A DNA stretch of 63,901 bases, counting the filler, from Octopus bimaculoides (taxonomy: Eukaryota), in the NCBI RefSeq assembly GCF_001194135.2. It is 9 parts of 9 records of this genome, joined end to end, with 100 filler letters (N's around TTAATTAATTAA, not from the genome) between each part and the next. Parts side by side here need not be neighbours in the genome. Positions count along the whole stretch, not along the records: positions 22,151 to 27,988 come from NC_068983.1; positions 28,089 to 41,612 come from NC_068981.1; positions 41,713 to 50,125 come from NC_068987.1; 6 more parts are not named here. One strand, 5' to 3'. Below the pieces are notes generated by a model that saw only the letters and a program-made list of their open reading frames with translations, searched no databases and was not told the origin of the DNA. Below are positions 2,268 to 63,901 of the stretch, piece after piece (position 1 is the first letter of the stretch; each line of letters starts with the position of its first letter). The translations under genes were made by a program, and so were the position numbers.

Positions 2268-2353
<86 letters not shown>

Positions 2354-2482
2354 TATTTGATATTATGCCAGAAAATGTGAAATGAAGAATATGAAAATAT
2401 TAACACAAATATTAATTAGAAAATTACTATTTTAAAATCTCACAACGAGACATATAGAGCAACAGTACTTTGGAGTAAAGAA

Positions 2483-6526: not shown

Positions 6527-6559
<33 letters not shown>

Positions 6560-6935: not shown

Positions 6936-7157
6936 TATATATATATTTATATTATTATAAGATCTGGTAATTAGTCATATATTAATATATTAATTAATAT
7001 CGATTAATTATCAGGGGGCCAGCACATTTAAAGAATCAGAGATTCAGAAATATTATCTGCAATCTCAAGACCTAAAAAGTTCTCAACATGAAATATAGCA
7101 GCATACCAAAAACGTGAGCGGGCAAGACATTTAAAATCATCTAAAAAAATCATTATT

Positions 7158-7223
7158 AAACAGGAACCAGGTTTCGGATTTAACAAATTCTTACCATTTG
7201 TCTATTCCTCATCAGCCTGATTT
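7158..7223 (-). ncRNA. Type I minimal hammerhead ribozyme motif (family 1)
   Basis: Minus strand reads aaatcagg CUGAUGA GGAAUAGACAAAU..AUUUGUUAAAUCC GAAA C CUG G UU / CCUGUUU. Core intact, stem I CAGG/CCUG, stem II 11 of 13 pairs. Confidence 0.75.
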
Positions 7224-10200
7224 GTAATGTAACAGCAATTATCAGAATCGTATACATAGTTGCCCACCGCCATGGGTGCGCGTGCATATGGTTCTGCTAA
7301 TTACAGCTTANNNNNNNNNNNNNNNNNNNNNNNNNNNNNNNNNNNNNNNNNNNNNNNNNNNNNNNNNNNNNNNNNNNNNNNNNNNNNNNNNNNNNNNNNN
7401 NNNNNNNNNNNNNNNNNNNNNNNNNNNNNNNNNNNNNNNNNNNNNNNNNNNNNNNNNNNNNNNNNNNNNNNNNNNNNNNNNNNNNNNNNNNNNNNNNNNN
7501 NNNNNNNNNNNNNNNNNNNNNNNNNNNNNNNNNNNNNNNNNNNNNNNNNNNNNNNNNNNNNNNNNNNNNNNNNNNNNNNNNNNNNNNNNNNNNNNNNNNN
7601 NNNNNNNNNNNNNNNNNNNNNNNNNNNNNNNNNNNNNNNNNNNNNNNNNNNNNNNNNNNNNNNNNNNNNNNNNNNNNNNNNNNNNNNNNNNNNNNNNNNN
7701 NNNNNNNNNNNNNNNNNNNNNNNNNNNNNNNNNNNNNNNNNNNNNNNNNNNNNNNNNNNNNNNNNNNNNNNNNNNNNNNNNNNNNNNNNNNNNNNNNNNN
7801 NNNNNNNNNNNNNNNNNNNNNNNNNNNNNNNNNNNNNNNNNNNNNNNNNNNNNNNNNNNNNNNNNNNNNNNNNNNNNNNNNNNNATATATATATATATAT
7901 ATATATACATACAAGGATGTATATAAAACTCTGTAAAAAAATGTATGTGTGTGTGTATATCTACTTGTATCTTTCTGTATGCATTTATACATGTATATGT
8001 ATTTAGTTTCAGAAGATATTAGAATAATGGAATAAAAGTCAGTCATAACAAGAGATCTCCCAAAAATCTATTTCCTTAATTTTCAACTACTGTTTCTGGC
8101 ACACAATTTTAATTTTGAAGTATTTAAAAAACTATTTGGAAATTATAAAGAGAAACAAATGGGAGATTCAGACTGTCCATATTTTAAAACCACAAATTAA
8201 AAAAGAATTCTGTGTGTCAAATTTTTTCTCCAGATGTTTATGGCTTCATAGGAATAAGCATGGAAAACTACATCAAGATAACCAATTGTCAGGCTTTTTA
8301 CTGCCTTTTAAAAAATGCAGACTTTGTGAATGAAACAAACTAGATCCTGAATAAGAAATGAATGTTTAATATGACAAATTTTCAGATTTTTTTACATCAT
8401 TTTAAAAGGGGGCTGATTTTTGTTACTTAAATGAAGTACATATGTATTTCACCAATTTCTATCAAATACACTCTCTTTCTTGAACATAAAAAATCCTCTT
8501 CCTGGGTGACAATAACTCGTATGTCAAATTGTTGCGCAACTTTTAGCTGTTTTGATAAGGGAAATAGGAAAGGTTTGAAATGATTTCATCGGCATTTACT
8601 TGCACCAAAGAGAACTTATTTTGATAGACAACACATTGACCTCATAAGTGTCGCAATTTTGCATTTCAATTTGTACATCTGTACTCCCAACTGTGTACAA
8701 GCGCATATGTAAAATGACGCCCTTTATTTTTTAATCATTATCTGGTGATATCAAAATAAGTAGTATATTGAAAAATAAAAATTGGGGGGGGGGGCATTTG
8801 TGATTCCAAGGGTCAAAAGAGGGCCTTTGGCCAAAATGGGTTGAGAACCTTTGCCCTAGAGGATTCATCAGGTCATTTGTATCACAGAACTCTCTTCATT
8901 TCTAGATCCAAAGCTATTGACTCCATGTACACCATGGAATCCATCAGTGGTGCCCAACATGTCTGTTAAAGTTACCAGTCACAAAGATTAGAACATTGAC
9001 ATTTAGCATCATCATCATTATTACTATTCTATACAGTTTGTCTGTAAAAGTTACTCTCTCTCAACCAGAGGCAAATGATGTAGCTCCATCTCCCACACTC
9101 CTCACTCAGTAATAACACTGAATACAGGCAGAAAGACTTCTTTTGATGTAAGGTATTTTGCAGCTTCACTATCAACATGTGACTGTAACATTTGTCACCT
9201 ATCAGTCTATTTCAATGTAAGTTGAAAGGTATGGCATAAATTGTACTTGTCTAGCATCAAAATATTGACCATTTTATTGAATAAAATGCATTACATTGGC
9301 ATGTTTGTCATGAATTGCTAACCTTTTTTGGGTGGTTAGTGCCTACTTTGCATCTTCTACATTGAAATTCTTTCTGAAATCTGTCAATAACTAAGTTGGT
9401 CCAAATGGTTTTTTATACTTCTAATATTTTTTACATTATCATCAACTTAGAGGGGAAATCCAGGAAAGATTTGGAACAATTAGTTCAGTGTTCATCATCA
9501 TTTAATGTGCATTTTCCATGCACATTAACCCCTTGCAGGTGGGAAATGGTACAGTGTGTGTGTTGCTGGACAATGGCTGAGGCCGTTGCCACATTAGTGT
9601 ACAGTTGCATAGTGGCTATGGCTGCAACCTACTTTTCTGTTAGGAATTTCTGATAATAGTGGATGATGGCTATGGCTGCAACCTACATTTCTGTTTGGAA
9701 TTTCGGATAAGCTGGGTTTTTTTAGTTATTGTTATGTGAAGCCCACAGATGAGGTTATATGCAAGTGATTGGTGTATAGTCAAACATATCTCTGTTGTTA
9801 GTGTGAAAGAGTGAATATTACTTCCACTCAGAAGCTTGCAAAAGTGAATAATACTTCTGCTCAGTTTCATAAACCAGAGCGATCTGTAAGAGCATTGATA
9901 TTGCTATTGACTTCTTCATTAATTTTCTCACAATCAGTATGCCTCTGAAATATAAAGTTCAGAGGCACAAGGAACTGGTTGTGATGACACACTATAAAAT
10001 TCCATGTATGAAAAATTATGTAGTCACTGAATGGCCTAATACCAGCACACAGCCCAGGCTGCCAGTACTAAATCCATCTGCAAGGGATTAACAGAAACTG
10101 ACAAATCAGAAGGCTACCCCAGGGAGAAGTATTGAGGAACAAAAGAAGAGGAGAAACATGGCTACCCTAAGCAGAGAGGGAGAGAGTGAAAATGTAGTGG

Positions 10201-25412: not shown

Positions 25413-26925
25413 GGCATACATAAAAACAGATACACACATGAATATACATATATACATATATACATATACATACGTATATATATATATATATATATATACT
25501 AGCTGGACCCTGTGCCGTCAAAAATGACGGCTAATTGTAGTATTTTATATATAAATAAGGTACAAACCCAAGATTTGGGTTTAATAATTCTTTTATTACT
25601 AATTTTTTTTTGTGAAAAATCTATCCGCAACTAACATCCTTTGACTGCTTTTTTCCTTGAAAATGATTTTCAAGTTTTCCTTCCTTCTTGTCCGACTTAA
25701 GGTCACATAAAGATGGCTGTGACTAAATACGGAAGCTGGCAAGTAAATACCAAATACACAGAGTTGAAACACTGTTTGATTTCTTTTCAGCGTTGAATGT
25801 TAACCATCTCACTTCCATTGCGCGCGCACACGCGCACACACACAAACACACACACACATGCACACACACACACATTCACATACCCACCTTTTACATACAC
25901 ACACATATATTCACACAGAGTTGAAACGCTGTTTAATTAATTTTTTTCAGCGTACAATTTTTATCATCCTACTACCAAGTATGACATCACCCCTTTCTTT
26001 CTTATTCATCTATCACCCTTTACTTTCTCATTCATAAGAGTATTATTATAGTAGATTATCTCAGTAACCATGGGAACTATGAAAAATACAAAGCCCAGCA
26101 ACACCACCGGATCATTCTACACATCTGTGTAATTTTTCGTGCAAGTCCACCCAGCCGTCTGACCGTGAATCCCAAGACAAGAGAATATACAAGAAAGAAT
26201 AGCCCATGTCAAATTTATATGTATAAATATAATAATAATAATATAAATAATATATATATATATGCGTATATACATACATACATGTACACACTTACACACA
26301 TATGTACATATACATGCATATATGGGTACAGGACGTCAAAAAACGTAAACAATATGAAAAACGAGAACATGAATTACAAAAACATGGAAAACGAACTTTT
26401 TTTTGAACAACGAAAGAAACAAATAGAAAAACGAGACAGACAACATAAAGAACAATCCCTTCATCAGTTGTCCACTGTTTTATCTACTCTGCATTTCGAG
26501 CGTTAGGATAAGATGCGTCTTCGCCAAAAGAGTCGCAAAGAAAATTTAATAAAATTTGGGATTTGCGGAGGGTCAAAGTTGGTAACAAAAACAGGAAAGT
26601 TAAAACAAACGGTAAGGGCTGTTAAGCCATAACGAAGTGAAATGGTGAACGCTGGAGAACAAGCTTTGGCAGGAGACAGACAAAATGCGTGCTATCTCTT
26701 GTAGCTGAACGAGAAGAAAGAAAGAAATTCGAGTTAGGATAAGAAAGATGACTGCTGGTCACGTGTGAGCAACGAGAAATTCAAGGAGAAAGTGCGAGGG
26801 AGAGAGAGGGAAAGATAGAGAACGGTGAAGGAGGAGAAGAATTAGAGAAAGGATGGGAGAGAAAAAAGAAGAAAAGAAGAAGAATATAGAAAGAGGAAGT
26901 GAAAGAGGAACATATATATATATTC

Positions 26926-27033
<108 letters not shown>

Positions 27034-27048
27034 GTGTGTGTGTGTGTA

Positions 27049-27569
27049 GTTGGAAAGATACTTGCCCACATTCTGTTAGAACGTTTAAATACCTTCATAG
27101 CTCCAAATATAGTGTCTGAGTCTCAATGTGGTTTTCGCTCCTCCAGGTGCACAGTTGATTGTATCTTTAGTATCAGAGAATTCCAAGAAAAGTGCATTGA
27201 ACAAAATCTTGTCCTATACCATTGCTTTGTTGATTTAAGGAAGGCATTCGACGCTGTTAATCGAAATGCTCTGTGACTAATTCTAAGGAAAATAGGTTGC
27301 CCAGAAAAATTTGTGAAGATGATCAGGGCTTTGCATCATGATATGAAGGCTAGAGTTAATTTTGGTGGTAGACTCTCTGAATCTTTTGCTGTAGAAAATG
27401 AAAAAAAGCAAAGAGACCTTGATGAACCAACCCTCTTTGCAATATATTTTACTGTTGTGCTATCACACGCTTTTCAAAACTCCGAGGAGGGTATTTACAT
27501 AAAACATCGAACAATAGGGAATGCTTTTAATCTGACCAGACTGATATTCAATTCAAAACAAACGTTTTA
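27049..27569 (+). mobile_element. RTE-clade LINE reverse transcriptase fragment
   Basis: GKILAHILLERL...SESQCGFRSSRCTVDCIFSIREFQEKCIEQ...FVDLRKAFDAVNRNAL*LILRKIGCPEKFVKMIRALH... Confidence 0.92.
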
Positions 27570-27708
27570 ACATTATTTACATTTGACGGATATTTGTCCT
27601 CATCTTGTTTGTTGTTAACACAACGTTTCAGCTGATATACCCTCCAGCCTTCATCAGGTGTCTTGGAGAAAATTCGAAGTTGGGTTCTCATTCCTAAGGT
27701 ATTTTCGA
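27570..27708 (-). mobile_element. Short hammerhead-bearing repeat element (family 4), interrupting the RTE fragment
   Basis: atcgaaaataccttaggaatgagaaccc...gacacctgatgaagg...aatgtaaataatgt, with a second copy at 40175-40318 (+). Confidence 0.85.
27617..27662 (-). ncRNA. Type I minimal hammerhead motif (family 4)
   Basis: GACAC CUGAUGA A GGCUGG agggtata UCAGCU GAAA CG UU / GUGUU. Stem III is reduced to the loopless palindrome ACGU, and there is an extra A after A9. Confidence 0.75.
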
Positions 27709-27730
27709 TATTATTATTATTATTATTATT

Positions 27731-27988
27731 TTATGTTTGACTTTTGTTTTGCATTTGTACAAGTTGGATCCAAGTCTCACCCAGAGACCTCAAGAGACAA
27801 CAAGTTAGAAGTTCATGTAGGTGTTATGCCTAGGGTACCATATATTTGGATTTGTACAGTTTTGTTCAAGTGAATGTTTAAGAAACCATAAGAAAATTAT
27901 GTTTGCTTTAAAATTTGAGATCACATAGACAGTATTTTACGTAGGATATGGGCAGTTCCCATGAGCACTATCTTTTGGACTTCAGCCA
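27731..27988 (-). mobile_element. 3' end (ORF terminus + 3'UTR) of an R4/Dong-type LINE, ending in (TAA)n
   Basis: AEVQKIVLMGTAHILRKILSM* (stop at 27921-27923), then UTR, then (TAA)n at 27709-27730. Confidence 0.8.
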
Positions 27989-28105
27989 NNNNNNNNNNNN
28001 NNNNNNNNNNNNNNNNNNNNNNNNNNNNNNNNTTAATTAATTAANNNNNNNNNNNNNNNNNNNNNNNNNNNNNNNNNNNNNNNNNNNNGTATATATATGT
28101 ATATA

Positions 28106-28846
28106 TATAATTCAATAATAGGATAAAGTCTTTATAAGAATTTATCAAGTAGTTAGCGTGAAAAAACCTCATAAGGGAAAAAAACATCATTAATCCCTAT
28201 AAATATATTTAATGTATATAAGGGCATTACTATACAATAACGCCTCACGCTAAGTGGGACTCCAGAAGTAAAACTACTATAATAAACACATTTTTACCAA
28301 TCGCGAGGGAATGGAACTCTCAAAGCTAACCTCATAAAAACTTTTAACTTAACGGTAAACCATGATTTCATAATCAACGCAGCAGTCTGCATCTATTTTT
28401 CATCAGTACACGTATGGTCAAGACACATAAGAATAAACAAAAATCAACATACCCGACGAACACTCCATGTATTCAGTAAAGTACATACACAATTGTTTAT
28501 CCCTATATATCCATGAAAGAGGCGGGCTTCTTTAACTACACTTCGGCACATATGCTTTTTCAGAATAATGTTCAGCACTGAATATTTTCTAATTATTTAT
28601 AATTCAATAATAAGATAAAGTCTTTATAAGATTTTATCAAGTAGTTAGCTTGAAAAAAACCTCATAAGGGAAAAAAAACCCATCATTAATCTCTATAAAT
28701 ATATTTAATTTATATGAGTGCATTACTATACAATAACGCCTCACGCTAAGAGGGACTCCAGAAGTCAAACTACTATAATAAACACATTTTTACCGATCGT
28801 GAGGGAATGCAACTCTCAAAGCTAACTTCCTAAAAACTTTTAACTT
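28106..28846. repeat. ~245-bp direct repeats (28106-28350 and 28598-28846) flanking a ~247-bp spacer
   Basis: tataattcaataata.gataaagtctttataaga...aaaaacttttaactt occurs twice with scattered substitutions. The left copy abuts (TA)n. Confidence 0.9.
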
Positions 28847-29425
28847 GGTTGAAATTACCGAAATACGACAACTTTAACACGAAATAACTTTGAAAATACA
28901 AACTTTTCTCAACAGCACCAAGAGTAAGAGATGTTTTATATGACACATTCTACCAGTGTCGGAAATTGGAAAGTGTTTAGTTACAAAAAATTAATTTCTT
29001 GATGTGCTGTTCAAAGGGAAAGGATCCCATATTATTTCTCTTCCTATACTAACAGCNNNNNNNNNNNNNNNNNNNNNNNNNNNNNNNNNNNNNNNNNNNN
29101 NNNNNNNNNNNNNNNNNNNNNNNNNNNNNNNNNNNNNNNNNNNNNNNNNNNNNNNNNNNNNNNNNNNNNNNNNNNNNNNNNNNNNNNNNNNNNNNNNNNN
29201 NNNNNNNNNNNNNNNNNNNNNNNNNNNNNNNNNNNNNNNNNNNNNNNNNNNNNNNNNNNNNNNNNNNNNNNNNNNNNNNNNNNNNNNNNNNNNNNNNNNN
29301 NNNNNNNNNNNNNNNNNNNNNNNNNNNNNNNNNNNNNNNNNNNNNNNNNNNNNNNNNNNNNNNNNNNNNNNNNNNNNNNNNNNNNNNNNNNNNNNNNNNN
29401 ATATATATATATATTTACATGCGTG

Positions 29426-29458
<33 letters not shown>

Positions 29459-30187
29459 ACGCACACGCTCACACAAACACACACATATAAAGAGTGGTTA
29501 GGTGGGGCCACTCTCCTTCGTGAGATCGTTGTTTCGATTCCCTGACAGGGCTCAGTGTTCCGTTCCGGTGTTGCGTTCCTGTGCATAACACTTCATTTCA
29601 TGCTACCCTGCGATCATGTCGGCATATAACGCATGGTACACTCGTGCATATGTACAGGAAATGTCTGTTTGATTGCAGGTGGGAGTTTACATGAGCACAG
29701 TCATGTGAGTATTCGGGCTATTCAGCAGAACCCTTACTCCGCGTTTAACGACAACGGGGTTCATAGAACAAATGCACGAAGCTTTCTTCTCCTTCCATTT
29801 TCCACTTTCCTCGAGTAGTCTTTCTGTAGAAGAGCATAGGCTCAAAATGTAAAAAACTTCTTCCACTTTATCTGAACATCAGCATACTGCCCTGTGTTTG
29901 TTGTTCTTTCGCTATGTCTTGGTTTTATCTTTTTATTCTGTCCATACACCGACCACATGCATACACAAAATCGCACACACCTATGTATATACACCCATAC
30001 ACATATATGTAATATACGTTTATATACACAAAAATACTTTAATATAAATATGTATTTATATTCTTATTTATATGAATGTATACAAGCATACATGCGTATG
30101 TGTGTACCCTCGTGTATATTTATATGCTTATTACACACATATATATTCATATATGAACACACAAATATCATCATTTTAAAGAATTTA

Positions 30188-30425
30188 AGGCGGCGAGCTG
30201 GCAGAAACGTTAGAACGCCAGGTAAAATGCTAAGCGGTATTTCGTCTTCCGTTACGTTCTGAGTTCAAATTCCACCGAGGTCGACTTTGCCTTTCATCCT
30301 TTCGGGGTCGATAAATTAAGTACCAGTTACGCATTGGGGTCGATGTAATTGACTTAATCCCTTTGTCTGTCCTTGTTTATCCCCTCCGTGCTTAGCGCCC
30401 TTGTGGGCAATAAAGACATAAGAAA
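30188..30425 (+). mobile_element. SINE family C, full copy
   Basis: Same sequence as 20108-20340. Confidence 0.9.
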
Positions 30426-33039
30426 TATTTTATAAAATACTCACACACGCACATTTATATACATAGTTCTTTCACGATATTATCATTCAAAATTATCATT
30501 CAAAAATACATTAAAGTAAGTGAAAACAATATCGTATTAAGTGCAATGCATTAATAGGTTTCGTTTCCTTGCGTTTTGAGTTCAAATCTCATCTCGTGAG
30601 CAGCTATTCTTTTTATCTTTCCTGGGTTTCACAATACCACCCTCAAAATGAAATTAATAAATTTAATTACTATATAATTTAATTTAGTTGATTCAATCGA
30701 CTTCATAAAGCTAAACACGTGTCGCTTCGGGACATACTTCTTTAATCTTCCTTCCTCATTTTCATTTCTTCGTTCATTTCTGCTTTTCGTTCTATTTTTT
30801 CTTCCTTTCTTCCTGTATGACAGTCTTTCTGTCTTTTATTCTTTCTGATATTATTTATTCGTTTATATATTTATCTCTTTCTAATTGATTATACTTCGTT
30901 CTTATTGATATTGTCATAGATTTTTCTTTTTTCCCTTCCTTAATTCCTTCATTTTTCTTTCACTCCAACTTTATTTCAGTAAATATGTATATACATTTAT
31001 TTTTGTGTTTCTTTCATTATTTATATATTTGCTTATTTACTATGAAAATTGTTTCTTTCTCCCTCTGTTGTTTTTCTTTCTCCTTTTCATTGATTTCATT
31101 CTATTTCTTACTTTCTGTCTTTCCTTGTCTTTGATTCTTTAGCTCATCTTTTGTGTTCCTCTATATATTACGTTCCTTTTTCTCACTCTTTTTCATTCGT
31201 TCAATTTTTTTCTATCATGCTTTCTTTATATTAGTTACTATTTCCATTCAGTTCTCTGCTGCTTTCTTTTTTTTTTACTTTATCTTTGTAAAGTATTCTT
31301 TTTTCTATCTTTTCCTCATTTGCTATATTCTTTGATATTTTTAATCAACTTACATTTTTTCACTTTCGCTTTCTTCACATATTTTCATTTCACTTTATGA
31401 TCATTTTTTATATATCTATTTACAGTTCCTGTTGATATTTTTGCTTTAATAGATGGGCTTCCCTGATCCAAGATTCGCTGAGTTACTAAAGCTGTGAACA
31501 AGCTGTCTTTCCGTTAACTAGCTGCGTCATTTTATGTTCAGGTTATTGTTGGTTTTAAATTCTAGAGTGAAATGTACTATATTTATCGTTCCAGGAATAG
31601 CAATAAAATAAAGCACCAATCTTAACAGTGTGAATTGACACACACTTTAAAATGTTGCGTTGAATGGCTACAGTATTCGTTCTAGCTTCCGTCGTTCTTA
31701 ATTCGAATGTCATCAAGATCAGCCTCCTTTTTCGTCCTTTGGAGGACGATAAATACATATTCTTTTAAAGGTCGTTAAACATGTCATTCTAAAAGTTTCT
31801 TTATACGATTTCCTGTCCTTCCTCATCTTGAAGATAGGTTGTGGTCACACATGGCTCTCGAGAGTTTTAAGTACGATAGACACAGTAAACATAGCCCACT
31901 TCACATTTGAATTTAATTTCAACCAACTATAAACCTGAACATAAAAAGACGTAGATAATTAGCTAAAAGGAAGCGTGTTACCTGCTTTAGTAAATCTATG
32001 AATGTTGGAGAAGTTTAAAAAAATATTTTAAAAAAAGATCAAAAACTGAGATAAACATTTATGAAGAAAGTGGAAGTGAACTTTACAATTTTTACAAGAG
32101 TTGAAGTGCTGTGGCTGTTCAACAAATTTCTGCTTTATGTGACTTTATCAATTATAAAGTATTTCTCAGGCATTGGTTAATCTTTCATAGATTTCGTTCT
32201 TTTCCTTTTTTTCAATTATTAGCTTGACATTAGCTTTTCCACCTTCCGCTACTATCAGTTTTTTTTCTCCTTACTAATATACAAATTTCTATCTCCATTT
32301 ATTTATTTCTCTTCGGTCTATATTTCTTTCAGCTATCTTGGAATGCACCCTCCACCAAAATAGTATTTCACATTCTCTCTTTTTAAAAACATCCCATTTA
32401 GATTTTTCCACTCTTTTCGCATTAATCTAAATTCTTCCAAGACACAACAACGAGTATTTGGTTTCTTGGCTGCGCGACAATATAGAAACAAAAGCCAAAT
32501 CAATTTCAAAACGAACTGTAACACCTTTCACCTAGAAATATACGTCTGAAAATGTAGTACTAAGCATGCTACGTAAGACTGTAAACTTGTTACACATTTG
32601 ATCATGTCAAATCTTGACTAAACAGCAAACAACATTATCAACAGCAATAACATTTATCCTTCATTATTTTCCGTATCATCATAATCACCATAACTCTACG
32701 CTGGCAGTCGTCCTTCCTAAATGTACATTGTCTATTTCCTCATTAATACTTAGTTTTTTCTTAATATCAGTAATTCCTCTCTTTGCTCTATTTTTCTGTT
32801 CCTACATTCCTCTCCCAACTACTTTGTTAGCACTCAAATTTCTCGCACATATTTTGCATCCTCACCACTTTTTTTAAAAATTTTTACATTTTCATTTGGC
32901 TTAACACATTATACTTTGCGATCCCTCCCATTTTCTTTCGTTTTCTCTTTCGTTATTTCTTACTTTAATTTGCGTACCATGCACACACGCATGTATATGC
33001 ATATTTACATGCTCGTATATATGCATGGGTATCTATGTG

Positions 33040-33115
<76 letters not shown>

Positions 33116-34076
33116 TGTGTGTGTGTGTGTATGCATACATATACATATATGTGCATATGTATATATATATATATATGTGTGTGTGTATAGGCGTGTGTAT
33201 ATGTGCGCACATGCCTGTGTATGTTTATACATACATACATACATACATGCATGCATACACAAGAACACACATACCAACACACACACGTTATAGTCAAATG
33301 TAAGTCCTGTTCGAGCCCTCAGATCCAATTGACCGGAGTTTAGTTCAGATTTCAAGTTGTTTTAACAAAAAAGAGTACGGGACTCATGTGTGGAAGAGAC
33401 TTCAGTCCGTCTTAAACTCCCAGGTGAGTAAAATGTAGAAATATGAAATTTAGTGCATGGCTAAATACATAAAGTGCTTCGCGTTACACAAAAAAAGAAC
33501 TCTTGAATTGAGACAACAAACACACACACACACACACANNNNNNNNNNNNNNNNNNNNNNNNNNNNNNNNNNNNNNNNNNNNNNNNNNNNNNNNNNNNNN
33601 NNNNNNNNNNNNNNNNNNNNNNNNNNNNNNNNNNNNNNNNNNNNNNNNNNNNNNNNNNNNNNNNNNNNNNNNNNNNNNNNNNNNNNNNNNNNNNNNNNNN
33701 NNNNNNNNNNNNNNNNNNNNNNNNNNNNNNNNNNNNNNNNNNNNNNNNNNNNNNNNNNNNNNNNNNNNNNNNNNNNNNNNNNNNNNNNNNNNNNNNNNNN
33801 NNNNNNNNNNNNNNNNNNNNNNNNNNNNNNNNNNNNNNNNNNNNNNNNNNNNNNNNNNNNNNNNNNNNNNNNNNNNNNNNNNNNNNNNNNNNNNNNNNNN
33901 NNNNNNNNNNNNNNNNNNNNNNNNNNNNNNNNNNNNNNNNNNNNNNNNNNNNNNNNNNNNNNNNNNNNNNNNNNNNNNNNNNNNNNNNNNNNNNNNNNNN
34001 NNNNNNNNNNNNNNNNNNNNNNNNNNNNNNNNNNNNNNNNNNNNNNNNNNNNNNNNNNNNNNNNNNNNNNNNNNNN

Positions 34077-34107
<31 letters not shown>

Positions 34108-34845
34108 TGTACGTGCGTTTGTGACAACGAAACACGCAGGAATAAAGGAGGGAAGAAAGTAAGGAAGAAAAAACAAGGTAAGATAGAAAGAAGACAGAAG
34201 CAAAAGTAAAGGAGAACTGACTTGGCGTGTTTACACGTATATGTCTTGAGCGAGTTATTTTCTCCCTGAGAACATACAGAGAATGGATTTCTTAACAGTT
34301 AGAATATGCCTGAAGCACCTTTGAACTCGTAAAAAAGTGATAATAGTACACATCAATGCTTAGGGCGTCGATTTCCCCCACACACATATACTATAGGCGC
34401 AGTGGTGACTGTGTGGTAAGAAGTTTGCTTCTATCTATGTAAAGCCTTTATGGCAAATTTGATGAAATAAAGAAGTTTACTTGTCAACCACATGGTTCCG
34501 GGCCTAGTCCCACTGTTTGGCACCTTGGGCAAATGTTTCTATTATAACCATAGGCCGACCAAATACTGGTTAGTGGATTTGGTAGACAAATATTAAATTA
34601 AATACGTGTGTGTGCCTGTGTTTGTCACCCTCTTGACAGCCGATGCTAGTATGTTTATGTCCTCGTGAATTAGCGGTTCGGCAAAACAGATCGATGGAAC
34701 AAATACTAGACTTACAACGAATAAGTGGAAGAATTAAAGAACAAATTAGACATACACACACACTCACAGACACATACACTCACACACTCACACTGATACA
34801 TATACATATATATGTACATTTATAGTTTCATATATACATATTGTA

Positions 34846-35320
34846 AGGCGGCAAGCTGCTAGAAACGTTAGCATGCCAGGGGAAATGCTAAGCGGTATTT
34901 CGTCCGCCGTTACGTTCTGAGTTCAAATTCTGTCAAGGTCGACTTTGCCTTTCATCCTTTCGGGGTCGATAAATTAAGTACCAGTTACGCACTGAGGTCG
35001 ATGTAATCGACTTAATCACTTTATCTGTCCTTGTTTTTCCCCTGTATGATTAGCCCCTTGTGGACAGTAAAGAAATAAAGAACGTTAGCACACCGAGTGA
35101 AATGCTTAGCGGTATTTCGTGTATCGATATAATCGACTTAATCCGTTTGTCTGTTCTTGTTTGTCCCCTCTGTGTGTAGCCCCTTGTGGGCAGTAAAGAA
35201 ATAGGTATTTCGTGTATCTTTACGTTCTGAGTTCAAATTCCGCCGAGGTCGACTTTGCCTTTCATCCCTTCAGGGTCCAATAAATTAAGTACCAGTTACG
35301 TACTCGGGTTGATCTAATCG
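34846..35320 (+). mobile_element. SINE family C, one full copy plus two rearranged partial copies in tandem
   Basis: Repeated aacgttagca..., gtcgactttgcctttcatcc... and agccccttgtgg... blocks. Confidence 0.85.
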
Positions 35321-35669
35321 ATTGGCCCCCTCCCCAGAAATTTCGGGCCTTGTGCCTAGAGTAGAACAGCATATATACATACTGTGTGAAAGAATGAATG
35401 TGCGCGTATGTGATTGTGCGCGCGCGTTCGTATGGCTGTGTCTTTGAGTCTGTATGTATGCAAATAGCAAAACACGTGCTGCTGTGATTGTCTATGTCAG
35501 TATGCATGAGTTCATGCGTGTAAGCGTGTGTTTCTGAAATTCATGTCAATCAGCTGTTCACTCTCTGACTCATATAGTTCTTCCCTTCAGCTGTAGTGAA
35601 ACCATTCAGACTGTAGTGAAATTATAATCAAAATTAAAGTTGTCTGCTTCCGTAATTTATGCCGCAACA

Positions 35670-35991
35670 TCTATAACAAGTGAATCATCATCACCATCAA
35701 CGTCGTGATCATAGTCACCACCATCCTCCCCTTCCTCCACATCCTCATCAAATTATCATCATCACCGTCGTCGTCATCGTCATCGTCATTAGCAGCAGTA
35801 GAATCAGCAGCTTCGTCGTTAAAATCGCCGTCGTCATGATGATGACTATCATCATCATCATCATCGTCAACGTCGTTGGAGTCATCATCATCATCATCAT
35901 CATCATCGGCGTCGTCGTCGCTGTCCTCTATCCACACCACCACCGCAAACAAAAACAAGAAATCACAACCACCACCACCACCACCGCTATG

Positions 35992-36031
<40 letters not shown>

Positions 36032-36768
36032 GAAACAGTAATACTATGGGCATTAGCATTACCAAAACTATGAACGTTATAATTACAAATGTGTCTAATT
36101 ATCATCACTATCATCATCAATTTTTTCCACTTCAAGGTTTCGGCTCCATCTCCTCCGACTTCACCTCCTCCTCCTCCTCCTCTTCCTTATCGCCGTCACA
36201 CTCACCACACCCTCATCGCTTTCACCGTTTCCATCATTGTCGTTGTCAAGTTCTTCCTTGCCTGTCGTTACCGTTATCGTCACCATCATCATAAACATCT
36301 TCATCATCACCGTTATCTTCGTCATCGTCGCCGTCATCATGATCATCATTTGCAGCAGCAGCAGCAGCAGCAGCAGCACGAGTAGGAAGTAGATGAACAA
36401 CAGCGATGCCGGTAATAATAACGACATCAACAATTGCAGCTGTACATAACAAGAGCAACTGTGTCATCAGTAGCACTGACTGCAGCAAAGGAAACGGCAA
36501 GCAATCTACTGCAGTAGTTATCACGGCCGCGGAAACAACAGTTATATATATTAAAAAAAAATCTAGTTTGCCACAACAACAATCAAACCAACAGTAAGAA
36601 CAACAACAACAACAACAAAAAGTTTCAGCAACTAGAGTGGGAAGAAGAAGAACAAGAAAAAGACGATGTCAATAAAGAAAAGTAAATAACTTCGGCTAGA
36701 AACAACCAAAAAATCAGTTGCAATATTAAGCACAGCATCCAGAATACCACAACAAACACCAACGTTGT

Positions 36769-36809
<41 letters not shown>

Positions 36810-36848
36810 TTACTACTACTGCTACTACTACTGCTGCTGCTGCTGCTG

Positions 36849-36894
<46 letters not shown>

Positions 36895-37020
36895 AAAATG
36901 CAGCAGCAGCGACAATAACAGTAACTTCGTCAACAATAGAAGAATACGCAGTAACAGCATCGCGTTCACGGTATCGCTTGTCTTGCACGGGAAAGTAGAT
37001 AATTCACCCTTGCTCCTCCC

Positions 37021-37066
<46 letters not shown>

Positions 37067-37550
37067 TTCACACCTGAAATAATTTGGGACAATGTGGTCC
37101 TCGAACACAGTCAAGAATACACACGCACACAAACACACTACGCACACATAAACACACACACATATGCATACACTCGAATATTAAGCCTAAATAAACGACG
37201 TGATGGTCACGACTGGAACAAAACTAATCATAACCGATATGATGCACATCGACAACTGAAAGAATCATATCGACAACAACACGAGTAACAGCAGGAACAA
37301 AAACAACAACAACAACAAATCAGTAATAGCAACAGGCACATTAGTGTCAGCTGTTACAACTATAAGAAAAGCCTATGTCAGCCGCTTCAGTGTCTGCAGT
37401 AACAACACCGGCAACAGCAGCAGAAGTAGCAGAAAAGGGAGGAGTAACAAAATCAACAGCTGCATCTATTATTTCTACAACAATATTATCAGGAAACGCA
37501 ACAAGTTGACAATATCATCATCTGCATTTCTGGTACAATAACAACAGCAT
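35670..37550. repeat. ~1.9-kb mosaic of trinucleotide repeats (CAT, CGT, CAC, AAC, CAG, TAC, TGC)
   Basis: Read directly. The ORFs on both strands are homopolymeric. Confidence 0.85.
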
Positions 37551-37739
37551 TGGTAATGTAAGTTTTGCAGCAAACGGATCTCCCTCGGTTTTGACGATGC
37601 ATATTCTCTTGTTCAAGCGACAAATCTTTCTAATCATGGAAGTGGTGTGGCGTTTAAGTAGCTGAGAATTCCACATAAGCGCCTATCTTATTACTGTGAT
37701 GCATAAAGAGAGTTAGTGTAACAATATGATACCTAGAGT

Positions 37740-38120
37740 GGAGGCGCAATGGCCCAATGGTTAGGGCAGCCGACTCGCGGTCATAGGATAGCGGTTTCGA
37801 TTCCCAGACCGGGCGTTGTGAGAGTTTATTGAGCCAAAACACCTAAAGCTCCACGAGGCTCCGGCAGGGGATGGTGGTGAACCCTGCTGTACTCTTTCAT
37901 CACAACTTTCTCTCACTCTTACTTCCTGTTTCTGTTGTGCCTGAAATTCAAAGGGTCAGCCTTGTCACCCTGTGTTACGCTGAATATCCCCGAGAACTAC
38001 GTTAAGGGTACACGTGTCTGTGGAGTGCTCAGTCACTTGCACGTTCATTTCACGAGCAGGCTGTTCCGTTGATCGGATCAAATGGAACCCTCGACGTCGT
38101 AAGCGACGGAGTGCCAACAA
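37740..38120 (+). mobile_element. tRNA-derived SINE family A, full length
   Basis: A box TGGCCCAATGG and B box GTTTCGATTCC, with the body shared with 3016-3316. Confidence 0.9.
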
Positions 38121-39108
38121 GAACATGGTACCTAGGGTCATCTCATTTGTATCAATTGACTCTCGGCATAACAGTGCACAGGCCCATACTTTGAATTTCA
38201 AATTTTGGCACAAGGCCAGTAATTTCAGGGGTGGAGTTAAGTTGATTGTATCGACCCCGATTTTCAACTGGTACTTATTTTACCGGCGCTGTAATGAAAA
38301 GCAAATCGACCTCGGCGGATTTTGAACCCAGGACGTAAACTGACGCTAAGCATTTCGCTCCGCGTGCTAACGATTCTGCCAGCTCACCGTCTTACATTTT
38401 ATTTATGTATTGACCATAAGCCACATCATACATAGATTAGAATTGAAACCCTTAAGTTGGCACAGCTGATATCACATTTTCTCTTACATGTACAATCCAC
38501 CAGACGAGCTTACAACAGTTTCCGACTACCAGGGTTGAGTCGATCCAGAGCTATAGTAAAACGTAGTTATCTAATTTTTTTCCCGCAGTGAGATCAAAAC
38601 GGAGATTTCGGGATTAAAAACCGGATTAATAACATTTTCTGTGTCAGTAACAGCGCAGTACAAGTACATAAACAAGCGAACGGGAGACTCATAAGCTGCA
38701 GAAATAGCAGCTAAAACTCTTTGAAATCACCATTCCGCGTCATTTTTATACCCTGGGAAGATATACTAAGTCAATGAGGTAGCCTCTGCTTGTTCCTTCG
38801 AGGTGCTAGAAATAACAATTAAGCTTCCCTCAAATAAACTCCGACAACCTTATAAAAAGATTATATTGAACTATATGTTTATAAGTTCTGTACAAATATA
38901 AAAAGGACGGGATTAGAATGCTTTCATACATGGATTTATGACCAGATTCTAAACAACAGCATAAGCGATATATTCTGTAATGTGGCTTTAGATTTATAAA
39001 ATGAAATGGGTTTTGGTCTTTGGTTATAAAATCCGTACGATCAGGACTCAATGTTAACGATAGAACGATAGATTGGATAAAATAGTATTCGACAGAAAAA
39101 AAAAGAAA

Positions 39109-39144
<36 letters not shown>

Positions 39145-39825
39145 AGCGAAGGCAAAACATTTGAAACTCCAGTGATCATAATTTCATTAGGTTATCACTG
39201 ACCCTGATATAAAACAATAAGAATAACAACAATGTGAGAGACAATGTAGATTTCAGTGCGAAAAGATTGGATAGTCATAACTTGAAAGCCTTTGCTCCCA
39301 CATCAAACCAAGAATAACAAACGCCTGAGAGGCTCAAGAGTATAATGCAGTTTAAGATATATTGCCCTCCTCGGCAAAATATAGTATCTCTTATCTTTTA
39401 CTTGTTTCAGTCATTAGACTGTTGCGATGCTGGAGCACCGCCTTCAAGTGTTTTTAACCGAATGAATCAACGTCAGGATTTGATTTTGTTAAGTTTGGTA
39501 CTTAATCTATCGATTCTTTTGAAAAACGGCTAGGCTTCGGGTACGTAAACAGAGCAACACCCGTTGTCAAGCAGCAGTTGGAGAAAGAAACAAAGACACA
39601 CACATACACACACTCACACACTCACACATACATATACGACAATCTTCTTTATTTTTCCGCCTATCAAATCCGCTAACAAGGATTTGTTCGGCTCGAGGAT
39701 ATAGAAGAAGACAATTGCACGAGGTGCCACGCAATGGTACTGAGCCAGAACCATATGGTTGGAAAGTAAGCTTGTTTTCACACAACCACGTCTATGCTTA
39801 TGACGTAGGAAAAATAAAAAAAGGT

Positions 39826-40094
39826 ACCTATTCGAAAATGATATAGGCTTACCATCCCTACAGGAAGTGTAAAAATAGTGTTAACCGGAACGACTCATGT
39901 ACTGAGAAGAGCAATATCGCTGCGAAGACAGCATCTATTCATGAATTTATTTATTTATTAATTTTTTTTAAAATACAAATTCTACATGTTAGTTTGCGTG
40001 TGTAAACTGGGAATGCATACAATGAACTTCTCTGCCCTACGTGTACCGAAAACACTCGGCAAGAAATAGAAAATTTGAAGAAAGAAAAAAATAC
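39826..40094 (+). mobile_element. 3' end of a second R4/Dong-type LINE subfamily, ending in (TAA)n
   Basis: PSLQEV*K / IVLTGTTHVLRRAISL (one stop, one 1-nt frameshift), then a UTR unrelated to the 27.8-kb copy, then (TAA)n at 40095-40166. Confidence 0.65.
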
Positions 40095-40103
40095 AACAAC
40101 CAC

Positions 40104-40170
<67 letters not shown>

Positions 40171-40221
40171 CAACATCGAAAATATCTTAAGAATTAGAAC
40201 CCAGATTCGAAATTTCCCCAA

Positions 40222-40265
40222 GACACCTGATGAAGGCTGGGTTATATCTGCCGAAACTTTGTGTT
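40222..40265 (+). ncRNA. Decayed hammerhead motif (family 4, second copy)
   Basis: GACAC CUGAUGA A GGCUGG guuaua UCUGCC GAAA CU UU GUGUU. A G16.2 to U change and a stem II mismatch make it likely inactive. Confidence 0.6.
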
Positions 40266-42392
40266 AACAACAAACAAGATGAGGACAAATATCCGTCCAA
40301 TGTAAATAATGTAAATAAGAATCCAGGATATGTTTCGAATTTCTCATGACATATTAAGTATATACAGTTATTTCGGAGCCGTGATCTGATGTATGTGAAG
40401 AAACAAAACGTTCAGGTGAGAAAGCCCAGCCCATTCGCTTTTGGCACTAAAAGCTACTGAATGGATTTCAGCATAGAAGAAGTTAAATGACATGGGAAGA
40501 AAAAGAGAGTGAGGGAGAAAGAGAAGTAAAGACAGAGGGCGGAAGGAGTAAGGTAGTGAGGACTGCAACATATCTAATAGGAACAACAAGATATTCCGAA
40601 AGTAGTTGAATCTAAATCAACACCACTGTAATCTTCAGAAATGGAGGCAAAGATCGTTTTGTATATGTTCCATTAAATAGACAAAGGCAAAAGCCATAGA
40701 TCTCCTTTTACTTCACCATCCACTTGCTACGATGTGGGACCGCAATAAGTAGTAGACCATCAGGGAAGATAGAAAAACAGAGCAACGACTGAGGAAAATG
40801 TCGAAGCCATATCTGAAATATGCAAAATATTTTGAGAAATTTCTCTCCACCTGTTGTCATGACGTATAGATGGCTGCGAAAGGTTTGACGATATTCTCCA
40901 AGAAATGAATGATTTAAGGCCGATCAAAAAGAATCGAAAGAAAGGATTTTGGTGCTGAAGGCTTCGATGATGTATTCACGAAGCTCCAATGCTTTTCATC
41001 ATAACCGGCTCAAAGAATAATACGGATCCATTTGGTTGAATCTGCTTTCAATACCACGAGTAGTGGAATGAGAAATGACTTAGCTTGCTGGGAACTTCAT
41101 ACTCATATTCGGGGAATTTCCTCCATCTCACTCCATGTACTTCTTTAATTATATATATGTATGTGTCTGTGAGTGCGCGTGTATATATATATATATATAC
41201 GAATGAGAAAATGAAGGAAATGGATAAAATTGACTTACAGCGTTACTTATTTAAAGAATAGTTTCGAATATATGAATTTGAAATTTATTTCTGTAATTGA
41301 ATTGATTGAGTATGGGCAAAGCTGTACACGGGAATTTCTGAGTATGAATTGGAATGTATTTAAATAAATAACGTCCATAAGTCAATTTTATCCATTTTCT
41401 TTATTTTCTCATTCATAGTTTTTTTTTAATACCTATACGTTTCAGTGTTGAACTAATATTCTTCGTTTTCACTGAACGCTACTTTTAACCGATGGATTTG
41501 TTAGATTTGGTGAAAGAATCCCGTCGTATATATATATATATAGACTATATATATTGACTATTTGTTTTCTTCTCGCTAGACCACTGGTAGTAAATAAAAT
41601 TTCTATAATTTTNNNNNNNNNNNNNNNNNNNNNNNNNNNNNNNNNNNNNNNNNNNNTTAATTAATTAANNNNNNNNNNNNNNNNNNNNNNNNNNNNNNNN
41701 NNNNNNNNNNNNTATATATATATATATATATATATGTGTGTATGTATGTATGTATATATGTATATCTATGTATATATATGTATATATATATGTGTGTGTG
41801 TGTGTATATATACATATATGTATATATATATGTATGTATATACATAAATGTATATATATGTATATACTGTATGTATATATATATATATGTATATATATAT
41901 GTATACGACAGAAGACTGTTGTATATATATGTGTATGTTTGTGTATGTGGGGGATGCATGTTTGTGTTTGTACCTCCACCTTCGCTTGACAACCGATGCT
42001 GCTGTGTTTACGTCCCCATGACTTAGCGGTTCGGCAAAAGGCACAGGTAGAATAAGTACTAGGCTTACAAAGAATAAATCCTGGGGTCGATTTTTAAAGG
42101 TGGTGCTCCAGTATGGCCGCAGTCACATGACTGAAACAGATAAAAGAATAAAAATATCTATGCCATTTTATCCCGATAAACGCCGGGTAGCTCTGCTCGT
42201 ATATGTTTATATATGTATGTTTGTATGTGTGTTCTTTTTTTGCAGCTATATACGTATGTGTATATATATGTACGGATGTATGGATGGATGTGTAATACAT
42301 TATTGCTTGCGTGTGTATATGTGTGTGTATTGTATGTATACATGCATATACATGTATATATGTATGTATGTATGTATAAGCATATTTGTATT

Positions 42393-51469: not shown

Positions 51470-52125
51470 AATTGGCAGCTAAATCTTTACTGGCAATAAC
51501 TGGCTGTAATTGTAATGGGCTTCGTGTACCTTTGCATGTTGTTTAATTCCTCCCACTGAATCACACTCCCTTCCACATGCCCGACAGACATGATTAGTAT
51601 GGTGTCTAGCATCATCACCAGTGGCCTGGTAGTCAATCATTGGTCTCACTTTATGACTACGAAGATGACTCTTGAGTCCAGCTTTACTGAGGCAGGGTCT
51701 TGCACAGACACTGCATGTTAGCGTCATAGGAAGACCCTTACCATCTGGAAGTGCAACTGCGATGCCCTTCCTAACATTCCTTACTTTGTCATGTGCAACT
51801 CGAGATTTCTCAAAAGTAGCTGTCCCCTCATGCACAATCCTTCTCCACCTGCCACGGTCAATAGCTAAGCCCTCCCATGTGTCAGGAGAGATGCTAGCAT
51901 CTTTGAAGGAAACCTTCAGCAAGTCTTTATACCTCTTTTTGGTTTATGTGGAGGTCGTTCTCCTTTAGTTAACTCTCCATAAAAGAGTTGTTGTGGCATC
52001 CTTGAATCTTTCATCCTGACCAGATGACCACTCCATCTGAGCCTTTGCTTCAACACACAAGAACTTCTATACTTTCACACTGAGAGCCTTCCAATAGCTG
52101 AAGATCACTGATGCTGTCCTCCCAC
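51470..52125 (-). mobile_element. RTE-clade LINE ORF 3' end with two C2H2-like zinc fingers
   Basis: RLRWSGHLVRMKDSRMPQQLFYGEL...DRGRWRRIV...CSVCARPCLSKAGLKSHLRSH...CRACGRECDSVGGIKQHAKVH. Confidence 0.88.
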
Positions 52126-52552: not shown

Positions 52553-53624
52553 ACACACACACACACACATACATACATACATACATACTGACAAAATAAT
52601 GTTAGATCAATAGTAAAAGCAGGGAAGCAAAAGAAACTTGTCCAAGGGGTGAATGTTTGGCAGAAAGTTATAATATATATTTCTTTATTGCTCACAAGGG
52701 GGCTAAATATAGAGGGGATAAACAAGGACAGACAGAAGGATTAAGTTGACTACACTAGTCCCAGTGTGTAACTGGTACTTATTTGATCGAACTTGAAAGG
52801 ATGAAAGGCAGAATTTGAACTCAGAATGTAATGGCAGACAAAATATCACAAAGCATTTTGCCCGGCATGCTAACGACTCTGCCAGCTCACCACCCTGAAA
52901 GTTGTAATATACTTTAATAAGTATTCTTAGATTACAGCTTTGTTGTTAAAATTTGTAAAAACCAAAACGAAGAACAATATTATGGAGAAAATTGGAAAAA
53001 AAAAAAAGCTATTGTTATTTATTGAACAACAAGGAAACCAACAACAATCAATGTAATTTCCAGAGATTTGTAAAAAGAAAACTTAAAGAAACTTGTTAGT
53101 GTAAAGAATTACACTTTGTGCTGAAGTAGAAATAAAATATGNNNNNNNNNNNNNNNNNNNNNNNNNNNNNNNNNNNNNNNNNNNNNNNNNNNNNNNNNNN
53201 NNNNNNNNNNNNNNNNNNNNNNNNNNNNNNNNNNNNNNNNNNNNNNNNNNNNNNNNNNNNNNNNNNNNNNNNNNNNNNNNNNNNNNNNNNNNNNNNNNNN
53301 NNNNNNNNNNNNNNNNNNNNNNNNNNNNNNNNNNNNNNNNNNNNNNNNNNNNNNNNNNNNNNNNNNNNNNNNNNNNNNNNNNNNNNNNNNNNNNNNNNNN
53401 NNNNNNNNNNNNNNNNNNNNNNNNNNNNNNNNNNNNNNNNNNNNNNNNNNNNNNNNNNNNNNNNNNNNNNNNNNNNATATACATATATTGGAGCTTGGTG
53501 TTGCCATCCGGTTTCACCAGTCCTCAGTCAAATCGTCCAACCCATGCTAGCATGGAAAGCGGACGTTAAACGATGATGATGATGATGATGATATATATAT
53601 AGGGAGAATTCACAAAAAAAAAAC

Positions 53625-54180
53625 AGATGAAGATGGATTGCTGCATTTAATTTGTCCAGCTGGTCATTGTACACATCTGAATTGATTGTCCTGTCTGTAG
53701 GAAGAAGATTGTAAAAGACAACACCCTTCCAAATCCACCAAATCGAAAGCATAACTTTTTGGGGGTGAAGTCCTGCTTTGGAGGTTGTTTGTGGTGGTTT
53801 GCTATGTTTCTCATATGATTGTTTGCACTTCACCTTGTTGTAGACCATCCATTTCGCATTCCCTATCACTGTTCTTTTCCATAAAGGATTGTTTGCTCCA
53901 TGTTTCTGCACCAAATCATAGATAGAAATCTATTGAATGTGGCTAGCCTCATTTAGTTGACTCAAGCACTGAGCCTACTGAAGTAAACAAATTGATACAG
54001 ATGGTGTATATCTATGACCATCCTGGGAGTATAACAGGTTTTGGTGATGTCTAATACCATTTTGTCACTGTCAATCTCAACTGGCCTACTAGAGGAAGGT
54101 GTATCTTGAACCAAAACATTTCCCATTCGAAATCTTGAAAACTACTTCTGGCACACATGTTCCGTAACAGCACATGTCTT
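53625..54180 (-). mobile_element. Mariner transposase relic (Mos1/mellifera-like)
   Basis: CQK*FSRFRMG...SSRPVEID, then VIGNAKWMVY...GLHPQKVMLSIWW...INSDVYNDQLDKL. Confidence 0.85.
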
Positions 54181-62754: not shown

Positions 62755-63901
62755 CATGTGCTTTTGTCTTTGCAATTAATTTTCTTTTCTTTGCAGCAGC
62801 CGTTTGCGCATTTACTTCAACCTGACCAATCTGGTGGGTATCTAAGAGATCAGTAGCGAATTTTTTCTTCTCTTTCAGAATAGAGTGAAGTTTTTTCGGT
62901 CTTTCATGTTTTTCAACAAGTTTCAGCATCCAATCGTTGGTTGTTTCAAGGTATTTGGCCAGTCCGATTGTGGTGGTTTTGTACGTAAGTTCAAGCTGGA
63001 TCAAGCCTCAACCTCCCTGAACTCTGGGAAGGTAAAGACGATCCACGTCTGCCTTCGGATGGTGCATCTTATTACAAAGTAGTAGCTTGCGGATTTTTCT
63101 ATCAATTTTGATTATTTCACTGGTTTTCCAGTTGAGCACATTGAAGCTATAAAGAACAACTAGGACTGCTAAGGAATTTATGGCTAACACCTTATTATAT
63201 GCATTCAGCTCAGACTTCAGAACTGCTCGAACTCTTCTATAACATTCCTTCCTAACCTTCTCTTTCATGCTTGCGTGCTGGATACCAGAGCCTGCATTCA
63301 TTCCTAGGTATTTATAGGTTTGTTCTTGCTCAAGTTCCTTTATTACTGTTTCGACATCTAATTCTATTGAACTTAAGTGTGGCTTTGGCACTTTTCAAGG
63401 CCAAACTCCATCCCGATATCATCACTGAATCCTTTCACAGTATGTAGTAGTCCTTGAAGCTCTTCATCATCTTTGCCATACAGCTTTAAATCATCCATAT
63501 AAAATAGATGGCTTATTTTCCTGTTGTCACTTTTGTAGCCATAACCTGTTCTATTCGGTTCACTTGAGAGTGGTATTAGTGCTTAGCAGAAAATTAGTGG
63601 TGAAAGCGAGTCACCTTGGAAAATGCTACAGTTAATGCTAATATTGTTTGAGCGCAATACTCCATTAGCATGATATAATTGGAGCTTCGTGTTCCATAGA
63701 GACATATTATACTTTTAAAAATCTGAAATCACAGGAGAAATTTTGAAAATGTCCAGCGATTTCAGAATCCACGAATGTGGTATGCTGTCAAAGGCTTTTT
63801 TTATAATCAAACCATGAAGAGCTGAGATTTCTGCGCTTGTTATTCTCAAGAATCATGCGATTAATTAAGAGTTGATCTTTGCATCCGTATGAGCCTCGTC
63901 T
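62755..63901 (-). mobile_element. R4/Dong-type non-LTR reverse transcriptase, decayed, running off the window edge
   Basis: DYKKAFDSIPHSWI...IFQGDSLSPLIF...YMDDLKLY...YKYLG...MHHPKADVDRLYLPRVQGG. Confidence 0.92.

What the first reader, a model, noticed from the sequence alone, without database searches (positions are those of the whole stretch)
27570..40318. The same hammerhead element sits directly behind an R4/Dong LINE 3' end at two independent loci
Seen: at 27570-27988 (-) and 39826-40318 (+) the order is identical: R4/Dong ORF terminus (KIVL.GT.H.LR), 3'UTR, (TAA)n, atcgaaaata..., hammerhead. The two LINE UTRs are unrelated, so these are two different subfamilies. Established: Dong elements target (TAA)n. 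Inference: the hammerhead element carries a (TAA)n that acts as a landing pad for Dong (a parasite of a parasite). Alternatively, read-through Dong transcripts are trimmed about 90 nt past the tail by the ribozyme, which would make the pair a functional composite.
Basis: partly seen in the sequence, partly recalled or inferred. Interest (0 to 1): 0.72.

Follow-up and report, generated by a model that had tools for sequence, protein, structure and literature searches.

The report
Dong LINEs nested before Penelope stumps
Two different jumping genes, of a kind known to home to TAA repeats, sit directly in front of two copies of a very common short repeat with a hammerhead-ribozyme-shaped motif; they likely just landed in that repeat's TAA run, an ordinary nesting, and nothing suggests that the ribozyme trims them.

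Summary
Observation confirmed: at both loci an R4/Dong 3' end, an unrelated UTR and (TAA)n precede the same ~140-bp element (89% identical). The element carries a minimal type I hammerhead of the Penelope (PLE) kind. In sequencing runs it has a sharp 3' end 52-62 nt past the predicted cut, mixed AT-rich (not TAA) 3' flanks, and a few inverted or tandem joints. It behaves like a PLE terminal stump, although no parent ORF was found. The trimming-composite idea fails: copies end well beyond the cut, both ribozymes carry private changes at conserved positions, another Dong tail runs into different DNA, and no RNA read bridged the junction in one piece. The landing-pad reading fits best: truncated Dong starts at (TAA)n in other contigs, and at locus A Dong looks younger than the element (p about 0.05). 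Enrichment beyond TAA frequency is untested. No genome was available, and the window alone gives p 0.01-0.1 post hoc. The scan has noted Dong nesting in other elements' TAA tails in other genomes, and PLE hammerhead stumps in this one. Ordinary nesting of two known systems.

The parts
27921..27988 (-). R4/Dong LINE subfamily A, last 21 codons and stop; the 5' part is lost in an assembly gap (27989-28088)
   Evidence: (75% identity over 20 aa to the C-terminus of P0010)
27734..27920 (-). Dong-A 3' UTR
   Evidence: flat, high repeat depth in 4 of 4 runs
27710..27733 (-). (TAA)7 tract between Dong-A and the element
27570..27709 (-). Hammerhead element, copy A (likely Penelope-like terminal stump); ends in AAATAATGT unit(s)
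27617..27662 (-). Minimal type I hammerhead motif, copy A; predicted cut after 27622; base of helix II is G-U here, G-C in the family majority
39803..39925 (+). R4/Dong LINE subfamily B, decayed and frameshifted ORF end; its 5' edge abuts a SINE, with no TAA there
39926..40103 (+). Dong-B 3' UTR
40104..40175 (+). (TAA)21 followed by CAA units
40176..40318 (+). Hammerhead element, copy B
40222..40265 (+). Minimal type I hammerhead motif, copy B; predicted cut after 40260; helix III palindrome broken (ACUU), U-U mismatch in helix II
39389..39802 (-). Abundant SINE-like repeat abutting the Dong-B 5' edge; hides that junction
   Evidence: (many window copies)

Best explanation
The ~140-bp hammerhead element is a very abundant, likely Penelope-derived terminal stump that likely brings a (TAA)n run at its 5' side, and two unrelated R4/Dong LINEs likely inserted into that run at different times. 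Steps: (1) inferred: a Penelope-type RT starts 50-60 nt downstream of the hammerhead, at AT-rich nicks, and copies back through the motif to the TAA run, leaving stumps; shown: fixed 3' end, mixed AT-rich flanks, inverted and tandem joints. (2) Known, and seen in this organism: Dong opens (TAA)n, so its 3' end comes to lie on the remaining TAA, in front of whatever follows and on the same strand. (3) Inferred: the ribozyme plays no part in the pairing, and both copies are decaying.
For: Motif anatomy matches the PLE minimal hammerhead of PMC4209133: 5-bp helix I, unpaired base after A9, G10.1-C11.1 in the family majority, palindromic ACGU in place of helix III. Sharp 3' end: 910 X1 contigs leave the element at 27570-27573 into mixed AT-rich DNA (agreement 0.45-0.48, not TAA-periodic), and X5, X13 and X21 do the same, so the TAA is not a split target of the element. 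3 inverted and 1 head-to-tail joints among 15 shown of 49. In the anole PLE, RT starts about 85-92 nt past the cut, at AT-rich DNA (from positions given in PMC11167929). Dong-B 5' truncation directly behind (TAA)6 in 4 contigs. Dong-A differs from its family majority at 2 of 248 sites, element A at 5 of 131 (p 0.051). Summed depth of the element is 3.6-10.5 times Dong-A plus Dong-B. Dong-B tail followed by other DNA in 33 RNA reads. If 15-40% of TAA tracts are Dong tails (2 of 7 here), both elements fall behind Dong with chance 0.02-0.16.
Against: The DNA upstream of the TAA was seen for only these 2 copies, because the read tool skipped 27701-27740; that the TAA belongs to the element is inferred. 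No parent PLE ORF was found. At B the two parts are equally diverged (19 of 258 vs 8 of 135, p 0.68), and no TAA remnant lies at the Dong-B 5' edge, which a landing in TAA should leave unless the SINE removed or displaced it. Two composites and no lone element in one window is somewhat unlikely under the null: P(>=2) 0.0002-0.19 over my rough brackets. Summed depth is not copy number, and O. vulgaris has 51 Dong families (PMC13282606 supplement), so the depth ratio cannot bound the total share behind Dong.
Confidence: 0.62

Rival explanations
1. Penelope-driven transduction: a Dong once landed in the TAA run of a source copy, and the Penelope machinery then copied the chimeric RNA (Dong 3' end + TAA + hammerhead end) to new sites as one unit.
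For: PLE terminal repeats can mobilise upstream DNA in trans (PMC3846280). At B both parts are equally diverged and the Dong piece is short, with no TAA at its 5' edge. 2 of 2 elements here are composites.
Against: Needs two separate source chimeras (unrelated UTRs). At A the Dong looks younger than the element (p 0.051). RNA depth is 0 at 27720-27739 although roughly 120 reads could bridge it, whereas 8-9 reads were laid across the skipped stretch; this is soft, because TAA length varies and 4 joint rows were dropped unseen. No shared target duplication at B (longest common word 5 nt).
Confidence: 0.14
2. Reverse order: Dong came first, and the Penelope-like element later inserted at the edge of Dong's TAA tail because both favour TAA/ATT DNA.
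For: The anole PLE endonuclease prefers 5'-ATT-3' (PMC11167929). Both copies start exactly at the end of the tract.
Against: Nicks inside a tract should leave TAA behind the element, but the 3' flanks are mixed and not TAA-periodic. At A the element is not the younger part.
Confidence: 0.12
3. One reading: the hammerhead trims Dong read-through RNA about 85-88 nt past the tail and serves Dong transposition.
For: Same strand and like spacing at both loci (88 and 85 nt). R4/Dong elements do use a ribozyme, but a 5' HDV-like one (PMC3774820).
Against: Inserts made from trimmed RNA would end at the cut; the family ends 52-62 nt further on, and depth is highest past the cut. A tested minimal hammerhead was inactive as a single copy (PMC4209133), and in the anole PLE cleavage needed the PLE protein (PMC11167929). 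A has lost G10.1-C11.1 and B the helix III palindrome. A Dong-B tail without the element exists.
Confidence: 0.03

Closest known systems
Terminal repeats (pLTR plus tail) of endonuclease-bearing Penelope-like elements with minimal hammerheads (PMC4209133; PMC11167929; PMC3846280)
   Same: Minimal type I hammerhead anatomy, mostly single dispersed motifs, fixed end some tens of bases past the motif, AT-rich targets, inverted and partial-tandem joints.
   Different: No RT/GIY-YIG ORF linked here; end 52-62 nt past the cut instead of about 85-92; apparent fixed 5' edge at a (TAA)n run and a 9-nt repeated end unit.
Dong (Bombyx mori), DongAg, DongBg, ostracod Dong1/2; R4 clade (PMC3812793, PMC7998251)
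   Same: C-terminus like that of RT-RLE proteins, 3' end on (TAA)n, 5' truncation behind (TAA)n.
   Different: Only terminal remnants here; the TAA target lies at the head of another repeat. Full-length ORF and 5' HDV-like ribozyme not seen.
Metazoan non-LTR retrozymes (PMC7229834; 10.64898/2026.07.22.740005)
   Same: Non-coding, type I hammerhead, PLE-related.
   Different: Retrozymes are tandem 150-450-bp units with canonical hammerheads; this element is single, 140 bp, with a minimal motif.

Membership tests
Penelope-like element terminal repeat | Minimal type I hammerhead (short helix I, extra base before helix II, G10.1-C11.1, palindromic 15.2-16.2) | tested here: met
   family majority base; each copy has one of these features mutated
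Penelope-like element terminal repeat | Fixed 3' end downstream of the hammerhead, joined to AT-rich targets | tested here: met
   loose ends at 27569-27573 in 4 of 4 runs
Penelope-like element terminal repeat | Inverted and partial-tandem arrangements | tested here: met
   3 opposite-strand and 1 goes-back joints among 15 shown of 49, one contig per run each; none in the window
Penelope-like element terminal repeat | Link to an ORF with telomerase-like RT and GIY-YIG endonuclease | tested here: inconclusive
   only one host isoform carrying a piece of the element; no genome to walk
Hammerhead ribozyme | Self-cleavage | not testable with these tools
   needs an in vitro assay
R4/Dong clade | C-terminus homologous to RT + restriction-like endonuclease proteins | tested here: met
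   (A clear; B weak by profile, supported); reference P0052 matches R2 structures, six references carry RVT_1
R4/Dong clade | (TAA)n target | tested here: met
   3' TAA at both loci; 5' truncation behind (TAA)6 in 4 contigs; not seen at these two 5' junctions (gap at A, SINE at B)
R4/Dong clade | Placement in the R4 clade by RT phylogeny | not tested
   no RT sequence at the two loci; the clade name rests on recalled motifs, unnamed homologues and the TAA target
Non-LTR retrozyme | Tandem units of 150-450 bp with a canonical hammerhead | tested here: not met
   single 140-bp copies, minimal motif
Mobilised Dong-hammerhead composite | Insert ends at the cut site; shared target duplication; obligate pairing | tested here: not met

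The most novel reading that the evidence does not exclude
The pairing is a real, enriched liaison: Penelope machinery picks up Dong 3' ends that landed in its TAA head and spreads Dong-TAA-hammerhead chimeras as units, so one retroelement class disperses the ends of another; or most copies of this element sit behind Dong because Dong prefers this TAA context.
Probability: 0.17. Interest if true: 0.55.

Novelty: new member of a known kind. Interest (0 to 1): 0.24.

Why it matters
If the best reading holds it matters little: one more case of TAA-homing LINEs nesting in another repeat, and one more Penelope-type hammerhead family in an octopus. The element itself is abundant (rough bracket 5,000-56,000 copies) and shared by two species labels. 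My searches found no description of it in print. If the pairing proved enriched or co-mobilised, it would show cross-class hitch-hiking between PLEs and RLE LINEs, and one genome count would test that.

Tried and rejected
No whole genome held, so the decisive genome-wide count was not run. Rfam: 0 gathering hits in the window; 5 chance hits, no hammerhead, at locus A. Free folding of the elements gave no unusual stability (z -0.45 to 0.55). Pattern scans: 3 metagenome, 0 genome and 8 viral loci, all chance word matches. Protein searches with the element's open 48-codon frame: 1 host isoform, then none; no sign that it codes. No tRNA gene; a B-box-like word in the element was not pursued. No RNA holder listed. 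No pile of read ends at the predicted cut in X21; such libraries need not show it, so it is not used as evidence. A possible upstream Dong-B piece at 39151-39195 scored within shuffles and was dropped. Target-duplication search at B: none; at A blocked by the gap. The TAA tract and element of B were not part of the second lay, so that junction was not examined in reads. Earlier-findings look-ups by sequence, relatives, eight words and near gave nothing. The original Dong paper is not held.

Full report
Setting. The window is AT-rich, gappy animal DNA full of microsatellites and SINE-like repeats. A piece of the element sits in a protein labelled Octopus bimaculoides, so an octopus is likely. 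No whole genome was held, so genome-scale evidence comes from two read lays on coded runs. One of these runs may be the window's own source.

Observation. Both loci read Dong-like ORF end, UTR, (TAA)n, element. The elements are 89% identical and are the only two copies. The UTRs are unrelated (416 of 2000 shuffles score as well); the ORF ends are related (15 of 2000). Using 35 long proteins of 151 fetched and a profile of 25 of their C-termini, A is a clear match and B a weak one; B is confirmed as a repeat family by 738 contigs. Three further R4-like pieces lie in the window, none followed by the element: 2266-1965 (3' end lost at a SINE), 1680-1362 (old, no TAA tail) and 63901-62759 (3' part beyond a gap). 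Of 7 (TAA)>=4 tracts, the same 2 carry Dong and the element: p 0.048, or 0.0095-0.10 by threshold, chosen after the fact.

The element. The motif is GACAC, CUGAUGA, an extra A, helix II, GAAA, CG, UU, GUGUU. This matches the minimal hammerhead described for Penelope-like elements, where a tested single motif showed no cleavage and dimers little (PMC4209133, parts 1-2 of 4 read). Copy A has G-U at the base of helix II where 79% of X1 depth has G-C; copy B has lost the ACGU palindrome. In X1, 910 contigs leave the element at 27570-27573. Their consensus shows one more 9-nt unit and then mixed AT-rich DNA (agreement 0.45-0.48); X5, X13 and X21 agree (24 loose-end rows shown of 1289). The end is thus 52-62 nt past the predicted cut. 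The anole PLE starts reverse transcription 111-118 nt into its ORF with the cut at 26, and nicks AT-rich DNA (PMC11167929, parts 1-2 of 4 read). Among 15 joints shown of 49, 3 change strand and 1 goes back head to tail, the layouts described for PLEs (PMC3846280, parts 1-2 of 5; 10.1101/2021.04.23.441226 and PMC8557442, passages). No parent ORF was found, so it works like a PLE end, but membership is not closed. It is not a retrozyme (PMC7229834, passages; 10.64898/2026.07.22.740005, part 1 of 5).

The Dong side. TAA targeting by Dong is in print for insects, a snail and an ostracod (PMC3812793, PMC7998251, passages; PMC4640811, passages, lists transposons and microsatellites as targets; the 1993 paper was not held). 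Here 4 contigs show a truncated Dong-B starting right behind (TAA)6. Dong's known ribozyme is HDV-like and at the 5' end (PMC3774820, passages). Dong-R4 covers 92.7 Mb in 51 families and PLEs 191 Mb in O. vulgaris (PMC13282606, passages and supplement rows; PMC8967140, passages), so both partners are common in octopuses.

Is the pair a unit? Peak summed depth of the element is 4.3 (X1), 3.6 (X5) and 10.5 (X21) times Dong-A plus Dong-B; the tool warns that this is no copy number, and other Dong families were not measured. Of 18 loose-end rows shown of 110, 6 lie behind the Dong-B UTR. One clearly passes the tail into other DNA (33 RNA reads), one probably does (3 contigs), four stop inside the tail, and none shows the element. 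Contigs are biased against showing it. RNA depth across the locus A junction is 0, against roughly 120 reads able to bridge it, while 8-9 reads crossed the skipped stretch; TAA length varies and 4 joint rows were dropped, so this only says that like-length composites are not common among expressed Dong-A ends. No target duplication flanks B. The pair is therefore not obligate, and it does not end at the cut.

Order of events. Dong-A differs from its family majority at 2 of 248 sites and element A at 5 of 131 (p 0.051; four of the five cluster in 14 nt and one may be a subfamily variant). At B the figures are 19 of 258 and 8 of 135 (p 0.68); the B element was scored by hand against the majority letters. 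With non-TAA 3' flanks, this favours TAA at the element's head and Dong arriving later. Against it: the upstream side was seen in only two copies, and B has no TAA at the Dong 5' edge.

Enrichment. If 15-40% of TAA tracts are Dong tails, both elements fall behind Dong with chance 0.02-0.16, and two composites in one window have chance 0.0002-0.19 over a rough copy bracket (genome size taken from the letters of run X1). A true excess is neither shown nor excluded.

Novelty. Three motif strings gave 0 papers. Octopus plus hammerhead gave 5 papers, 4 listed, none on this by title or abstract start. Hammerhead plus R4/Dong gave only the 5' ribozyme paper. Repeat libraries such as Repbase and unseen supplements (including those of bioRxiv preprints) may already hold the family. 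Earlier scan notes report Dong nesting in TAA tails in other genomes and PLE hammerhead stumps in this genome; they are leads, not support. Verdict: ordinary nesting of two known systems, interest 0.24; 0.17 chance of an enriched or co-mobilised liaison.

Noticed in passing
window 28110-28846 (-): Partial tandem just upstream of the gap before Dong-A: 245-bp direct repeats (93%) around a stretch with another hammerhead-like motif at about 28410-28355 (long helix II, near-palindromic helix III); a different family. It did not pass my strict descriptor.
   Followed up: partly
window 7219-7160 (-): Hammerhead-like motif of a third family (CAGG/CCUG helix I, GAAACCUGGUU) next to a gap; it did not pass my strict descriptor.
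   Followed up: partly
window 1129-2355: Pile-up: (TAG)n directly followed by a truncated R4-like piece (2266-1965, -), a SINE-like repeat, (TAA)21, an older R4-like piece (1680-1362, -) and another TAA tract on the opposite strand; suggests an R4 family that uses (TAG)n.
   Followed up: partly
window 62759-63901 (-): Longer decayed R4/Dong RT region, cut by a gap and by the window end.
   Followed up: partly
loose end before 39870: A Dong-like tail plus (TAA)6 precedes a truncated Dong-B in 4 contigs: likely Dong stacked in another Dong's tail.
   Followed up: no
window 27569-27712 (-): One reading frame is open across the whole element and the TAA run (poly-Asn); part of it appears in an annotated octopus dystrobrevin isoform (P0001), probably an exonised or mispredicted repeat.
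   Followed up: partly
window 2469-2777; 20842-22007; 5985-8198: A fold-back element and two pairs of inverted repeats (79-93%) of unknown class.
   Followed up: no
window 26890-27550 (+); 51479-51943 (-); 53528-53929 (-): RT fragment of another LINE, a zinc-finger-like ORF remnant and a mariner-type transposase piece.
   Followed up: no
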